Shown: in pieces, positions 14,101 to 16,070 of the stretch
How the letters are laid out: each line of letters opens with the position of its first letter
Position numbering within the stretch: the first letter of the stretch is position 1
Assembly (NCBI RefSeq): GCF_000014265.1
Contig: NC_008312.1
Location: forward strand, 5,280,001 to 5,312,000
Source of the DNA: Trichodesmium erythraeum IMS101
Lineage (GTDB): Bacteria; Cyanobacteriota; Cyanobacteriia; Cyanobacteriales; Microcoleaceae
Length of the DNA: 32,000 nt
Direction: 5' to 3'
The notes under the pieces: model-generated
Seen by the model: the letters and a program-made list of their open reading frames with translations, nothing else
The model's database searches: none
What the model was told of the DNA's origin: nothing
Program-made: the position numbers and the translations under genes

Positions 14101-14853
14101 TAATGATTCATTATTCTGGTCATAAATATCAATGTAAGCTGCCTCATCTAACCCAGAAAGATTAAAGTTAACGATGCTATTTTGCAGCAAATTAAATTGA
14201 TAATAATCATAGCGATCGCTACTACCAACCCAATCTTCAAAAATTTGAATGGGGCCCAAATTCCCCATACTTTTGGCTGTGTCTTTAGTGTTATCCGACA
14301 AAACATGACTATAAGTCGCGATCGCATCCTCTCGAAACGGCAATCTCAAATCAACATTACCAGCATTAACCTCCAACTCCCAGTCACCACCCAAAGCCAA
14401 ACTACCAGTTAACCCCGCCGTTGCCGCAATATTTGCCCCCGTCAGTCCGTGCAACCTCTCCAAAAACTCCCTACCCCCATCTCCTGCAGCCACATTACAA
14501 CCATAGAGCAAAAGATTACTAACTGACCAACCTTCCAAGTCAGAAGTATAACTATTATTAATATTATCAAGACTTAATTGGCCATTACCCAAAAATAAAC
14601 AGCCGGGCCTTCCATGGGAAACAATATGAACAGATGAAAGATGAAGATACTTGCCTATAACCTTAGTAATTTGCTCAACACCATCTTCTATTGAGTTGAG
14701 AATAACCACCTTGACCCCAGACAAAGCTCCATTCACTAAACTCTCATAGTCTTCTACTTGAGAATCTATAAAAACTATAGCAATCCTAAGTAGGTTGCGG
14801 CAAAATTTCATACTGAAAAAGTTTTGGGAAATTGAATATTTGACCATCCGCAA
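5155..14853 (-). CDS. giant multidomain surface/RHS-family protein, 5'-displaced by an IS630 insertion. Order: DUF4347, 9x PPC, IPT/TIG, RHS/YD shell, orphan segment, beta-sandwich, FN3-like, 2x cadherin-like, 6x FG-GAP/VCBS-like
   Basis: Uninterrupted 3,232-codon ORF.
- The DUF4347-like N-terminus reads IVFIDSQVEDYESL...VHIVSHGRPGCLFLG...LLLYGCNVAAG.
- The PPC modules carry D.DYYQF...GTYYARI.
- The YD repeats are of the YxYDxxGR type.
- The Rhs core reads FMRARFYDGETGRFVSMDPIGLNGGDENLYRYVGNGPVDYIDPEGL.
- The cadherin-like modules read IDENVA.NSVVG.F...D.D.GD.FTY.LV....DN..F...LTINVNDI.E.P.
- The FG-GAP-like blades read FN.DG..DILWRH...NRIWLMNDDGT.
The first 26 codons (14776-14853) are IS-derived. 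Native coding sequence resumes at 14775. Confidence 0.9.
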   Translation of the reverse strand: MRMVKYSISQNFFSMKFCRNLLRIAIVFIDSQVEDYESLVNGALSGVKVVILNSIEDGVEQITKVIGKYLHLSSVHIVSHGRPGCLFLGNGQLSLDNINNSYTSDLEGWSVSNLLLYGCNVAAGDGGREFLERLHGLTGANIAATAGLTGSLALGGDWELEVNAGNVDLRLPFREDAIATYSHVLSDNTKDTAKSMGNLGPIQIFEDWVGSSDRYDYYQFNLLQNSIVNFNLSGLDEAAYIDIYDQNNESLRSQYFSGQDTDEPLNFNLNSGTYYARISNSSGWYSVTNTPYQLEASAIEIADRAGDTEEDPKDIGNLNEEQTITDWVGDIDNYDYYQFNLQENSIVNFNLSGLDEAAYIDIYDQNNQSLKSQYFSGQDTDEPLNFNLNSGTYYARISNSSGWYSVTNTPYQLEASATEIADGVGDTEEDAKDIGNLNEEQIFTDWVGDIDNYDYYQFNLQENSIVNFNLSGLDEAAYIDIYDQNNQSLKSQYFSGQDTDEPLNFNLNSGTYYARISNSSGWYSVTNTPYQLEASATEIADRAGDTEENAKDIGNLNEEQTFTDWVGDIDNYDYYQFNLQENSIVNFNLSGLDEAAYIDIYDQNNQSLKSQYFSGEDTDEPLNFNLNSGTYYARISNSSGWYSQTNTPYQLEASATKIADGVGDTEENAKDIGNLNEEQTFTDWVGDIDNYDYYQFNLQENSIVNFNLSGLDEAAYIDIYDQNNQSLKSQYFSGEDTDEPLNFNLNSGTYYARISNSSGWYSQTNTPYQLEASATKIADGVGDTEENAKDIGNLNEEQTFTDWVGDIDNYDYYQFKLQENSIVNFNLSGLDEAAYIDIYDQNNQSLKSQYFSGEDTDEPLNFNLNSGTYYARISNSSGWYSQTNTPYQLEASATEIADRAGDTEEDAKKVGNLNQKLTITDWVGDIDNYDYYQFSLQENSIVNFNLSGLDEAAYIHIYDQNNQSLKSEYFSGEDTDEPLNFNLNSGTYYARISNSSGWYSQTNTPYELEMSAVSIADNSGNTIGEAKDVGILKGNKTFQDWVGDIDRYDYYQFELKEDSRINFHLSGLDDAAYIHLYNQNNESLRSEYFSGQDTDEPMNFNLDSGTYYARISNSSGWYSQTNTPYNLEMSAVEIVDKAGNSFNTARDLNILVGNHSFNDFLSDIDTFDYYRFELNKDSSFELEIENLDRNAGVILYDNHGQVIKSVTATSWNGASFNQGLEAGDYFVRVANFGDDNFYTLNLEATPNEEELPLKISDITPETGSNSGETTISLQGSSFSLASQVSLVGNGSSTNADEIVWQNERNLQATFDLGGLPPGKYQVKVTDEGETATAQETFSVNEVPQGELTINLNVPERVRPWWQGDVVIHYTNDTDSNFPAPLLNLVAEGAELQDPFTGEWTDEPVQFLAINSQGVAGVLPPGAKDSFNILVKPTVGVGEQINFTVNAVTPDEEVDWNSFKERLRPDNVPDSAWDEVWNNFVASIGNTAADYERVLAENATTLSKLGEYTNDAGRLLGFELQQASNNQDIVVRYRLGSLGRGQTFFGDIRAVLDEDGNVAIENGPSRLVFESQDDGSFASPPNITMVLTKVEDVYQLRQSDGTIIRFRSNGRLDYLENTNGDRLQTTYTNGHLTSWENSNGEKTDFVYNSQGRIIRTTDSSGWVTNYGYDGTGEKLLSVTTPDGTVSYTYNDSFAITSVTDIDGTKSLFKYDGQGRLIEESWGDGSEKVEYTYRDDGSVQVRDANGATTNMLLNDRGQVGQMTDALGRQTQMRYDQNGNLSQVVAPDGSVTGFIYCGCGSLLAQTGADGNTTNFEYEPNFNQLSVVTDAKDNQLKYSYDDRGNATDIIYADGSRDRFKYDSEGNLILTTNRREGQVGYSYDDVDRLIHKQFGNGDSLNYEYDDRGNLIKVTDESGETVMVYDDADRLTKITYPTERWLEFTYENNRRSSMVDDSGGIVKYGYDGVGRLRKLTDGENELIVQYSYDNIGRLAKEENGNGTATVYEYDDVGQLVKLTNFDADNQVNSQFEYSYDDLGRRSTAKTLDGDWEYGYDAVGQLISAKFDSSNSEIPDQNLSYTYDAVGNRISTKVNGQNTDYETNNLNQYGQVGDIEYEYDADGNLIEKTEGGNVWQYEYNVENRLVKVVEPDGIETEYEYDVLGNRIATVYDGNRTEYLVDPFGFGNVVGEFQDGDLVARYVHGLGLVSRVDSDGEGNFYDFNAIGSTVGLSDGQGDYVNRYHYAPFGKDVFEQEQVANQFEFVGQFGVMEEANGLDFMRARFYDGETGRFVSMDPIGLNGGDENLYRYVGNGPVDYIDPEGLKSKDKNDSIKRMIERAKKLREREKKYLGNGGKSGLLTRGAAIDMVNDKNLKDSERGKRAKDLDFDSADKRAGTGAEFLSDATGIFAPTTPIGTPGYIIGLCITGACNTVERQELPIGGAVDPNDIIGPAGVGEENWLTSPQTLPYTIRFENDAEKADAPAVFVTVTQQLDSDLDWNSFELGNFGFGDINIEIPPGYQNYTERIDLTETIGYFVDFNAEMNAETGAVKYTLETIDPETGEYPTDFDAGFLPPNVNPPEGDGFISYTISPGQDVQTGDVIDAEASIVFDTNDPIATPPVFNTIDITAPTSKVEELPETTSGAEIEVTWTGEDQGSGVATYDIYVSENGGDFELWLDDTTETSATYTGEIDKTYAFYSVATDKVGQVETTTAQAQATTKVKESNKAPTALELDKETIDENVAANSVVGTFSTTDPDPGDTFTYALVAGEGDTDNQTFTIEGNQLKINSSPDFETKPTYNIRVQTTDRNVASYQEQLTINVNDINEAPTDLDLGNKNIDENVAPNSVVGEFYTVDPDSGDSFTYELVTGEGDKDNQAFTIEADQLRINDSPDYESQSSYNIRVQTTDRNVASYQEQLTINVNDIDESEPVQFDFNADGVADILWRHKSHKNGPNRIWLMNDDGTRNQTVNPGSFGSAWDVAGVADFNTDGVADILWRHQSHKNGPNRIWLMNDDGTRNQTVNPGNFHSAWDVAGVADFNTDGVDDILWRHQSHKNGPNRIWLMNDDGTRNQTVNPGSFRSAWDVAGVADFNADGVDDILWRHQSHNNGQNRIWLMNDDGTRNQTVHPGILGLAWDVAGVADFNADGVDDILWRHQSHNNGQNRIWLMNDDGTRNQTVHPGILGLAWDVAGVADFNTDGVADIHWRDQSGANRIWLMNDDGTPNQTVNPGGFGSAWDVAGM
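5158..6084 (-). repeat. six tandem 156-bp (52-aa) FG-GAP/VCBS-like coding repeats; the last unit is 47 aa
   Basis: The anchor ggctacatcccaagct recurs at 5311, 5467, 5623, 5779 and 5935, giving a period of 156. Units 5311-5466 and 5467-5622 read as identical. Confidence 0.9.
6106..6705 (-). repeat. two tandem 300-bp (100-aa) cadherin-like coding modules
   Basis: atcgttaacattaatggtcaactgttcttgatagctggctacg... recurs at 6109 and 6409. The protein blocks NKAPTALELDKETIDENVAANSVVGTF... and NEAPTDLDLGNKNIDENVAPNSVVGEF... correspond. Confidence 0.8.
7906..10085 (-). other. RHS/YD-repeat shell region ending in the RHS-associated core (DPIGL at 7978-7992, DPEGL at 7906-7920)
   Basis: About 730 aa of degenerate YD repeats (e.g. 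YTYNDS, FKYDGQGRLIEE, YEYDDRGNLIKVTDESG, YSYDNIGRLAKE, YEYDADGNLIEK), followed by RYHYAPFG...RFYDGETGRFVSMDPIGL-N19-DPEGL. Confidence 0.85.
11110..14300 (-). repeat. nine tandem 357-bp (119-aa) PPC (pre-peptidase C-terminal)-like coding repeats
   Basis: The anchor agcttctaattgataaggag recurs at 12181, 12538, 12895, 13252, 13609 and 13966, a period of exactly 357. Diverged units sit at about 11110, 11467 and 11824. Units starting at 12538 and 12895 are identical over about 330 nt. Confidence 0.9.
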
Positions 14854-15890: not shown

Positions 15891-16070
15891 TATATCTGTA
15901 ATAGGATTAACTCCCCACAGTTTTCTTGAATTGTTATTAGTAGAAAAAGAAGTCCTAAGTTCTGGTTCAGAATTAAATAGTTGTAGAGGAGCTGAAACTT
16001 TCCAAAAGCCTACTTCCTGTTCCCAGTTTCCTACTAATTTATGATTATTTATAGGATAAGCACTTTTCAT
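15888..16070 (-). pseudogene. orphaned native 5' end (60 codons) of the giant gene, cut off by the IS630 insertion
   Basis: ATG ORF MKSAYPINNHKLVGNWEQEVGFWKVSAPLQLFNSEPELRTSFSTNNNSRKLWGVNPITDI. Its stop codon (15888-15890) is supplied by the IS end. Removing the IS plus one TA (1,115 nt) fuses it in frame to ...VFIDSQVEDYESL. Confidence 0.75.

What the first reader, a model, noticed from the sequence alone, without database searches (positions are those of the whole stretch)
14776..15892. Intact IS630-family element precisely splits the giant gene; excision restores one continuous frame
Seen in the sequence:
- Terminal inverted repeats tagcaatcc.../...ggattgcta are flanked on both sides by TA, the IS630/Tc1-mariner target duplication (established knowledge).
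- The transposase ORF is intact.
- Removing the element plus one TA (14778-15892, 1,115 nt, which is 2 mod 3) joins the 60-codon ORF 15888-16070 to the giant ORF in frame: ...LWGVNPITDI|VFIDSQVEDYESL... This recreates a natural-looking DUF4347 start.

A 60-codon open frame in exactly the compatible phase in AT-rich DNA is unlikely by chance. The rest of the 9.6 kb ORF carries no lesion. The insertion therefore looks very recent, making this either a fresh pseudogene or a strain polymorphism.
Basis: partly seen in the sequence, partly recalled or inferred. Interest (0 to 1): 0.7.

Follow-up and report, generated by a model that had tools for sequence, protein, structure and literature searches.

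The report
IS630 insertion splits giant Trichodesmium gene

Summary
The observation and the interpretation are both confirmed. Window 14778-15890 is a complete 1,113-bp IS630-family element. It has 18/25-matching inverted ends (TAGCAATCC...), an intact 345-aa DDE transposase on the minus strand, and TA on both sides. Removing 1,115 nt fuses the 60-codon ORF (15891-16070) to the giant ORF, giving 3,266 codons with ...NPITDI|VFIDSQ... at the join.

Two syntenic Trichodesmium contigs (a Tara metagenome and MAG St16_bin4) carry exactly the predicted empty site, ACAGATATAGTTTTTATAGAT. Six further Trichodesmium proteins read straight through the join. Twenty-seven further element ends, from complete and partial copies, fix the IS ends and the flanking TA.

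The window is T. erythraeum IMS101:
- the giant gene is Tery_3459/ABG52551.1;
- the transposase equals ABG52552.1 and at least three other IMS101 copies;
- the 60-aa stub is WP_044136877.1.

Every contig with the filled site that was retrieved is 99.97-100% identical to IMS101, so this is a strain-specific, recent insertion.

RefSeq starts the giant gene at an ATG inside the IS, which looks like an annotation artefact. IMS101 is known to hold more than 100 IS elements, so interest is low. One side observation may be worth more: other Tara contigs appear to carry an IS4-family element within 3 bp of the same site.

The parts
14776..14777 (.). TA target-site duplication, copy next to the body of the giant gene
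   Evidence: The sequence is. The empty sites in L001 and L002 hold two TA units where the window holds five around the GCAATCC...GGATTGC core. The net gain is therefore a 1,113-bp IS plus one TA.
14778..15890 (-). Complete IS630-family insertion sequence, 1,113 bp, 31% G+C against 37% for the window
   Evidence: Related copies align from base 1 to base 1113 and stop there.
15866..15890 (-). Terminal inverted repeat at the transposase 5' end (TAGCAATCCCATATTGGTCGCAACA)
   Evidence: It shares 18 of 25 bases with the other end, and the first 9 are perfect.
14778..14802 (+). Terminal inverted repeat at the transposase 3' end (TAGCAATCCTAAGTAGGTTGCGGCA). It contains the transposase stop codon.
14786..15823 (-). 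Transposase gene, 345 codons plus stop. It has HTH_23 and HTH_33 domains and a DDE_3 domain, with candidate catalytic residues D171, D250 and E294.
   Evidence: NCBIfam NF033545 IS630 scores 3e-46, 158 bits against a cut-off of 100. The protein is identical to ABG52552.1, ABG50385.1, ABG52089.1 and ABG52680.1 of IMS101. The motif positions were picked by eye, not from an alignment.
15891..15892 (.). TA target-site duplication, copy next to the 60-codon stub
15888..16070 (-). Severed 5' end of the giant gene. It holds 60 codons (16070->15891), then a TAG stop supplied by the IS end (15890-15888). It is annotated in RefSeq as hypothetical protein WP_044136877.1.
   Evidence: The same 60 residues are the N-terminus of uninterrupted homologues.
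5155..14777 (-). Body of the giant gene (Tery_3459), 3,206 codons with no stop. It contains DUF4347, 7 PPC units, TIG, RHS repeats, DUF7619, cadherin and FG-GAP domains.
   Evidence: The last 2,223 residues are 100% identical to P0268 from MAG GBRTRLIN201 and end at the same stop. The exact products are on record as WP_044136876.1 and ABG52551.1.
14809..14847 (-). In-frame ATGs inside the IS end, at 14847 and 14811. The second is the RefSeq start of WP_044136876.1. These are chimeric starts, not the native one.

Best explanation
A multi-copy IS630-family (Tc1/mariner superfamily) insertion sequence transposed into a TA dinucleotide at codons 60/61 of a 3,266-codon gene in Trichodesmium erythraeum IMS101. 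That gene encodes a giant DUF4347/PPC/RHS/cadherin/FG-GAP protein.

Shown:
- the insertion duplicated the TA;
- it cut off the 59-residue leader plus the first DUF4347 residue; this stub is now a 60-aa orphan ORF that ends at a TAG in the IS end;
- the remaining 3,206 codons are left without their native start and promoter;
- the event is specific to IMS101-type DNA.

Inferred to be recent, because:
- the TA duplication, the inverted ends and the transposase are intact;
- the transposase protein is identical to at least three other IMS101 copies;
- neither gene fragment has acquired a stop;
- relatives whose flanking DNA is 97-99.6% identical still have the empty site.

Inferred consequence: the native protein is no longer made. 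Any residual product would have to start at IS-internal ATGs (14847, 14811) or at GTG 14736, using read-through from the co-oriented transposase gene.

From established knowledge of the family (ISY100; PMC6400869): transposition is cut-and-paste by a DDE transposase that binds roughly 24-bp imperfect inverted repeats and targets TA.
For: - IS identity.
- Ends and flanking TA in other copies: 8 related complete copies, plus 5 right ends and 2 left ends; 2 near-identical complete copies; 12 further left ends, 11 of them preceded by TA.
- Frame restoration: only the 1,115-nt deletion works.
- Empty site, base for base, in syntenic L001 and L002. Their flanks are 97.3-99.6% identical to the window.
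- Eight uninterrupted N-termini, including P0256 at 98.9% identity over 268 aa.
- More distant homologues P0002 and P0003 (73-74% identity) keep a recognisable leader, so the leader is real coding sequence.
- The filled junction was seen in 12 independently assembled contigs. The six that were read are 99.97-100% identical to the window and break 22-25 nt into the IS.
- Identity of the locus with IMS101 Tery_3459 and ABG52552.
- The C-terminal 2,223 aa are identical to a field MAG and end at the same stop.
- IMS101 is known to hold from 106 to more than 150 IS elements, and 8.5% of its genes are transposases (PMC4143802).
Against: - No expression data were available. Loss of function is inferred, not shown.
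- I obtained no DNA of the other IMS101 copies. 'Recent' therefore rests on protein identity and intact features, not on nucleotide divergence between copies.
- The junction between the IS and the gene body (14777/14778) is supported only by the window itself and by RefSeq/GenBank products from the same assembly.
- It is unknown whether the insertion predates the isolation of IMS101. MAG GBRTRLIN201 is 100% identical over the 3' two-thirds of the gene, but its contig does not reach the site.
Confidence: 0.93

Rival explanations
1. The gene is still expressed. Transcription reads through from the co-oriented transposase gene, or from a junction promoter. Translation starts at an IS-internal ATG (14847 or 14811) or at GTG 14736. 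The product keeps essentially the whole DUF4347 domain but has lost its native 59-residue leader. On this reading the insertion changes the N-terminus and the regulation rather than killing the gene.
For: - The frame is open from TTG 14853 through the junction, with ATGs at 14847 and 14811.
- RefSeq and GenBank both annotate the body as an intact gene of 3,218 or 3,193 aa.
- The transposase and the giant gene lie on the same strand, and the transposase stop is only 9 nt from the junction.
- A -35/-10-like pair lies across the IS end and junction at 14803-14774.
- The body has no stop in 3,206 codons.
- The leader has no obvious hydrophobic signal-peptide stretch (read by eye).
Against: - Promoter-like hits in the region are no more frequent than in shuffles: 10 found against a mean of 9.9.
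- No Shine-Dalgarno-like sequence is evident upstream of the internal ATGs.
- The leader is conserved at 73-74% overall identity in P0002 and P0003, which suggests it matters.
- An intact ORF is equally expected if the insertion is simply young.
- The annotated starts are what a gene caller would choose by default.
Confidence: 0.25
2. The insertion is a reversible switch. Transposase-mediated excision restores ...GATATAGTT... and turns the giant surface-protein gene back on in a subpopulation, giving phase variation.
For: - The transposase is intact and the element is multi-copy, hence presumably active.
- Removing the IS plus one TA restores the frame exactly.
- A second IS from a different family appears to sit within 3 bp of the same site in Tara contigs. 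The site is therefore hit repeatedly.
Against: - All 12 contigs with IMS101-type flanks carry the filled junction. No empty-site contig with 100% IMS101 identity was found.
- Tc1/mariner-type excision normally leaves a double-strand break or a footprint rather than a clean reversal (general knowledge, not tested here).
- Nothing at the locus, such as an invertase, a repeat tract or a regulator, suggests a dedicated mechanism.
Confidence: 0.04
3. The 60-codon ORF is a chance open frame and the IS sits in the intergenic DNA upstream of the gene. Alternatively, the insertion is an assembly error.
For: A 60-codon open frame in the right phase has a chance probability of about 0.005, not zero. Repeated IS elements are classic sites of misassembly.
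Against: - Eight homologues contain these 60 residues fused to DUF4347.
- The DNA of the empty site matches base for base.
- The filled junction recurs in independent ENA and Logan assemblies from at least six samples.
Confidence: 0.01

Closest known systems
IS630 family insertion sequences (Tc1/mariner/IS630 superfamily), e.g. ISY100 of Synechocystis PCC 6803
   Same: - A single transposase ORF with N-terminal HTH domains and a DDE_3 catalytic domain.
- Imperfect terminal inverted repeats of about 25 bp.
- Strict TA target with TA duplication, in an A/T-rich context.
- Multi-copy in a cyanobacterial genome.
   Evidence: PMC6400869.
   Different: - It is 1,113 bp long, against 947 bp for ISY100.
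- The transposase is only distantly related to ISY100 (not measured here).
- The nearest relatives outside Trichodesmium are 76-81% identical transposases in Coleofasciculus, an unnamed cyanobacterial MAG and Dapis.
Other copies of the same IS in T. erythraeum IMS101 (ABG50385.1, ABG52089.1, ABG52680.1, ABG53227.1; ABG49544.1 with 2 substitutions)
   Same: The transposase protein is identical. The window copy is ABG52552.1.
   Different: They lie at other insertion sites. Their DNA could not be fetched here.
IS-disrupted genes and transposase-rich, low-coding-density genome of IMS101 (Pfreundt et al. 2014, PMC4143802)
   Same: It is one more gene interrupted by selfish DNA in a genome where IS elements make up about 6% of the sequence.
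   Different: This particular split (Tery_3459 plus WP_044136877.1) is not recorded in the annotation. It is also absent from the searchable literature.
IS-mediated phase variation of surface structures (e.g. IS492 in Pseudoalteromonas, IS1301 in Neisseria; from memory, not checked)
   Same: An IS sits in a surface-protein gene, and its exact removal would restore the frame.
   Different: There is no evidence here of reversion. No IMS101-type contig with the empty site was found.

Membership tests
IS630 family insertion sequence | Transposase matching the family model above the curated threshold | tested here: met
   NCBIfam NF033545 transpos_IS630 (an equivalog model) scores 158.2 bits against a cut-off of 100, E 3e-46, over residues 22-304. 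Pfam DDE_3 scores 53.6 bits against 28.6, and HTH_33 scores 41.3 against 25.
IS630 family insertion sequence | Terminal inverted repeats bounding a 0.9-1.4 kb element with a single ORF | tested here: met
   The element is 1,113 bp. The ends TAGCAATCC... match at 18 of 25 positions. There is one 345-codon ORF, lying 67 nt from one end and 8 nt from the other.
IS630 family insertion sequence | Insertion into TA with duplication of the TA | tested here: met
   The empty sites in L001 and L002 read ACAGATATAGTTTTT. The filled site reads ACAGATA-TA-[IS]-TA-GTTTTT. TA flanks both ends of 10 other complete copies. It also flanks 5/5 further right ends, 2/2 further left ends and 11/12 metagenomic left ends.
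IS630 family insertion sequence | DDE catalytic triad | tested here: inconclusive
   Candidate residues are D171 (FMIDECH), D250 (IFWDGAT) and E294 (NPVEDIW), with spacings of 78 and 43. They lie inside the DDE_3 match, but they were picked by eye. No residue-level alignment or structure was made.
IS630 family insertion sequence | Cut-and-paste transposition activity | not testable with these tools
   Activity is only implied by several identical copies in IMS101 and by 235 sequences in the 90% cluster.
DUF4347-led giant cyanobacterial proteins (the interrupted gene) | N-terminal DUF4347 domain preceded by a short leader | tested here: met
   PF14252 scores 174 bits against the gene body (profile positions 2-164). 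In the restored protein the match starts at residue 60, profile position 1. Homologues from other genera have leaders of about 24 to 50 residues before the IVFID/IAFID motif.
RHS/YD-repeat proteins | RHS repeat array ending in the PxxxxDPxGL core motif | tested here: met
   PF05593 is matched in 9 stretches, 203.7 bits in total. The sequence ...DPIGLNGGDENLYRYVGNGPVDYIDPEGL is visible in the identical P0268. Whether a toxin domain follows was not examined.

The most novel reading that the evidence does not exclude
The boundary between the leader and DUF4347 in this giant RHS/cadherin/FG-GAP gene is a recurrently targeted site. An IS630 element occupies it in IMS101. A putative IS4-family element sits within 3 bp of it in Tara Oceans populations. 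A frameshifted and truncated allele occurs in another Tara contig. This would reflect selection for switching off, or for reversible switching of, a giant cell-surface or contact-dependent-competition protein in Trichodesmium. The model strain IMS101 would then be a natural knock-out of a protein that field populations still make.
Probability: 0.08. Interest if true: 0.5.

Novelty: already known. Interest (0 to 1): 0.2.

Why it matters
The main value is as an annotation correction for a widely used model diazotroph.
- WP_044136877.1 (60 aa, 'hypothetical protein') and WP_044136876.1/ABG52551.1 (Tery_3459) are two pieces of one gene split by the IS that carries Tery_3460.
- The RefSeq start codon of the large piece lies inside the IS.

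There is also a practical point. IMS101 may lack a native giant adhesin/RHS-type protein that closely related field populations encode intact. Anyone using IMS101 to study filament or colony interactions, or contact-dependent competition, should know this.

Biologically it is a textbook TA-targeted IS630 insertion in a genome already known to hold more than 100 IS elements. It opens no new question on its own.

Tried and rejected
- Exact look-ups of the window transposase as 345-, 318- and 363-aa products, and of P0246 and P0243, found no contig on record. I therefore could not fetch DNA of the other IMS101 copies.
It returned only relatives of 48-81% identity from other cyanobacteria and no Trichodesmium locus. 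These were useful for the IS ends but not for copy-to-copy divergence.
- A JGI metagenome scan for the site itself (TGGGRARTTAATCCTATTACAGATATA) found nothing. Site occupancy in JGI samples is therefore unknown.
- The alternative IS boundaries GCAATCC...GGATTGC with a 4-bp TATA duplication were rejected. That model would add 1,113 nt, whereas the empty site shows 1,115 added. Deletions of 1,111 or 1,113 nt also break the frame.
- The promoter and terminator scan gave only chance-level hits.
- Rfam found nothing in the window.
- Literature searches for Tery_3459 and for an ISfinder-style name 'ISTer' were empty or irrelevant. The supplements of the IMS101 transcriptome paper are not held, so no transcription start site data were available for the locus.
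- The 37-aa fragment of the second element was too short for the large protein search.
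Full report
**1. The observation**

The + strand reads ...AAAAAC-TA-TAGCAATCCTAAGTAGG... at 14776 onward and ...GGGATTGCTA-TA-TATCTGT... at 15880 onward. The two ends are inverted repeats. The first 9 bases are perfect, and 18 of the first 25 match. A degenerate 18-mer for the end occurs only at these two places in the window, against none in 100 shuffles.

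Between the ends, on the minus strand, lies an open 345-codon ORF with its ATG at 15823 and its stop at 14786-14788.

I tested the frame claim by deleting several candidate intervals:
- Only the 1,115-nt deletion (14778-15892, or equivalently 14776-15890) produces a single ORF. It has 3,266 codons and reads ...LWGVNPITDI|VFIDSQVEDYESL... at the join.
- Deleting 1,111 or 1,113 nt gives stops within 12 codons of the join.

**2. What the element is**

- The ORF product scores 158 bits (cut-off 100, E 3e-46) against the NCBIfam equivalog model for IS630-family transposases.
- It carries Pfam HTH_23, HTH_33 and DDE_3 domains.
- Candidate catalytic residues are D171, D250 and E294. These were chosen by eye.
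- The element has 31% G+C, against 37% for the window.

**3. The true ends**

Three sets of copies settle this.

- A scan of GTDB genomes with the transposase returned related copies of 48-81% protein identity in other cyanobacteria. For eight complete copies, blastn homology to the window IS runs from base 1 to base 1113 and stops there. Each is flanked as ...TA|TAGCA...TGCTA|TA... at unrelated sites. Five further right ends are each followed by TA, and two further left ends are each preceded by TA.
- Two contigs from ENA marine metagenome assemblies, one of them Tara Oceans, carry copies 98.7% identical to the window IS with the same ends and flanks.
- An exact-match scan of JGI/ENA metagenome contigs for the 24-nt left end found 12 more junctions, 11 of them preceded by TA.

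The element is therefore 14778-15890, and the flanking TAs at 14776-14777 and 15891-15892 are the target duplication.

**4. The empty site and the orthologues**

A search with the restored N-terminus returned Trichodesmium proteins that begin MKSAYPINNHKLVGNWEQEVGFWKVS... and run through ...NPITDIVFIDSQ... without a break.

- These are P0001 (a Tara metagenome) and P0004 (MAG St16_bin4-tuft).
- From the same 90% clusters come P0256 (St11_bin5, 98.9% identical over 268 aa), P0259, P0260, P0262 (St19_bin2), P0263 (T. erythraeum 21-75) and P0264 (St4_bin8_1).
- More distant homologues (P0002 and P0003, 73-74% identity) keep a recognisable leader. The 60 codons are therefore conserved coding sequence.

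The contigs of P0001 and P0004 (L001, L002) are syntenic with the window. They share the 905-aa DEAD/DSHCT helicase, the 1,099-aa GHL10 protein, DUF3318 and the nucleoside hydrolase. Their DNA is 97.3-99.6% identical to the window.

Both read ...CCTATTACAGATATAGTTTTTATAGATTCTC... at the site. The empty site has two TA units after ACAGA. The filled site has five around the GCAATCC...GGATTGC core. The gain is 1,109 + 6 = 1,115 nt, that is, a 1,113-bp IS plus one duplicated TA. A model with a 4-bp TATA duplication would add only 1,113 nt and is excluded.

**5. Where the window comes from**

Exact look-ups identify the window as Trichodesmium erythraeum IMS101.

- The giant ORF read from ATG 14811 is WP_044136876.1 (3,218 aa, 'DUF4347 domain-containing protein').
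- GenBank ABG52551.1 (Tery_3459, 'YD repeat protein', 3,193 aa) corresponds to a start at GTG 14736.
- The 60-aa stub is WP_044136877.1, 'hypothetical protein'.
- The transposase is identical to ABG52552.1 (the next accession, hence the neighbouring gene), to ABG50385.1, ABG52089.1 and ABG52680.1, and to the body of ABG53227.1.

The public annotation therefore treats the two fragments as separate genes, and RefSeq places the start of the large one inside the IS. I found no paper that mentions Tery_3459.

**6. Polymorphism and age**

The 60-aa product is called on 12 contigs from ENA and Logan assemblies of at least six samples. The six contigs that were read are 99.97-100% identical to the window and stop 22-25 nt into the IS. 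That is the usual signature of an assembly breaking at a multi-copy repeat. So the filled junction is reproducible, but only in IMS101-type DNA. Every diverged Trichodesmium sequence I recovered has the empty site or a different lesion.

Several features point to a recent insertion:
- the TA duplication, both inverted repeats and the transposase are intact;
- several IMS101 copies encode the identical protein;
- the 3,206-codon body has no stop;
- its last 2,223 residues are 100% identical to a field MAG (P0268, GBRTRLIN201) and end at the same stop.

I could not measure nucleotide divergence among the IMS101 copies.

**7. Mechanism and consequence**

From established knowledge of the family, transposition is cut-and-paste by a DDE transposase that recognises imperfect inverted repeats of about 24 bp. 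It inserts at TA with a mild preference for A/T-rich flanks (ISY100; PMC6400869). The target here, GATA-TA-GTTT, fits.

The insertion separates the body from its promoter, its start codon and its 59-residue leader. Pfam places the start of DUF4347 at residue 60 of the restored protein, so the cut is exactly at the leader/domain boundary. The most likely outcome is loss of the native protein.

A rival cannot be excluded:
- The transposase is co-oriented with the gene.
- The gene's frame is open back to 14853, with ATGs at 14847 and 14811.
- Read-through could therefore give a protein with 12-24 IS-encoded residues in place of the leader.

The promoter scan is uninformative, with hits at chance level.

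**8. Comparison with what is known, and novelty**

This element is a member of the IS630 family on every feature I could test: model score, architecture, inverted repeats and TA duplication. Only the catalytic triad (picked by eye, so inconclusive) and transposition activity (not testable here) remain open.

IMS101 is documented to contain from 106 to more than 150 IS elements. Transposases make up 8.5% of its genes, and selfish DNA about 6% of its genome (PMC4143802). An IS-split gene there is expected. What is new is limited to the link between two annotated 'genes' and the misplaced RefSeq start.

I rate the finding as correct and well reasoned, but ordinary.

**9. Side observations**

- Seven Tara contigs (three read: L103-L105) have the same upstream synteny and the same leader. 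However, they diverge from the empty-site sequence right after ...ACAGAT. The new DNA encodes, on the opposite strand, a peptide that matches the last 22 positions of an IS4-family transposase model (E 4.9e-4, a fragment only).
- L001's allele is frameshifted at about residue 231 and then leaves the gene altogether.
- The P0004-type alleles switch to a different domain architecture after about residue 200 at the same locus.

The gene therefore appears to be damaged or remodelled repeatedly in different lineages. The near-coincidence of two unrelated IS elements within 3 bp is the only mildly surprising result. It is subject to ascertainment bias, because these contigs were found through a cluster of short N-terminal products.

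Noticed in passing
L103:4069-4189, L104 and L105 (Tara Oceans contigs); equivalent to window about 15893-15895: In other Trichodesmium populations the same gene breaks right after ...CCTATTACAGAT, within 3 bp of the IS630 target TA. The new DNA encodes, on the opposite strand, the C-terminal tail of a probable IS4-family transposase (NF033590, E 4.9e-4, last 22 profile positions). A second, unrelated IS therefore sits at almost the same spot.
   Followed up: partly
window 14809-14847 (minus strand): The RefSeq protein WP_044136876.1 starts at ATG 14811, inside the IS end. GenBank ABG52551.1 starts at GTG 14736. The 60-aa WP_044136877.1 is the real N-terminus. The three annotations describe pieces of one split gene.
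   Followed up: yes
window 19486-20740: A non-coding tandem array of a 281-bp unit (4.5 copies, 97% matches) lies between the helicase and GHL10 genes. From the blastn offsets, copy number appears to differ between strains: about 1.5 in L001 and about 6.5 in L002.
   Followed up: partly
L001:10690-11000 (Tara contig), against window about 14189: P0001's allele is frameshifted after about residue 231 (...DTAKNMGAWAQFKFWKIGLVV...), and homology to the window ends at L001:10766. The contig then continues into a Rieske/PaO gene instead of the 9-kb gene body. A paralogue-like protein, P0006 (71 member sequences), has the same frameshifted tail. This could be a deletion, a rearrangement or a chimeric assembly. 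It was not resolved.
   Followed up: partly
L002:10600-11641, and proteins P0004, P0262, P0263, P0264: At the same syntenic locus, other Trichodesmium genomes (including T. erythraeum 21-75) keep the leader and DUF4347 at about 88-90% identity. After ...GGDWELEV they switch to a different architecture of repeated FG-GAP modules in place of the PPC array. The locus appears to be modular and hypervariable.
   Followed up: no
window 11470-14236, 5161-6081 and 6107-6701: The giant gene contains long in-frame tandem arrays: 357 nt x 7.8 (PPC units, 93% matches), 156 nt x 6 (FG-GAP) and 300 nt x 2. These probably explain why MAG assemblies of the gene are fragmentary.
   Followed up: no
window about 8000-8300 (minus strand; the RHS core end, seen in P0268): The RHS array ends in the canonical ...DPIGL...YIDPEGL motif, but it is followed by about 900 more residues (DUF7619, cadherin, FG-GAP). 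The Tara homologue P0273 diverges right after this motif, as polymorphic-toxin C-termini do. P0273 itself ends in the peptide ...CLLYTSPSPRD, which is probably adapter-derived.
   Followed up: no
L091:40-92; L095, L097 and L102: One metagenomic copy of the IS is inserted directly beside the end of a related IS (...GGATTGCTA-TA-TAGCAATCC...). Several other contigs hold only the first 48-100 nt of the IS followed by unrelated sequence. These may be internally deleted, MITE-like derivatives.
   Followed up: no
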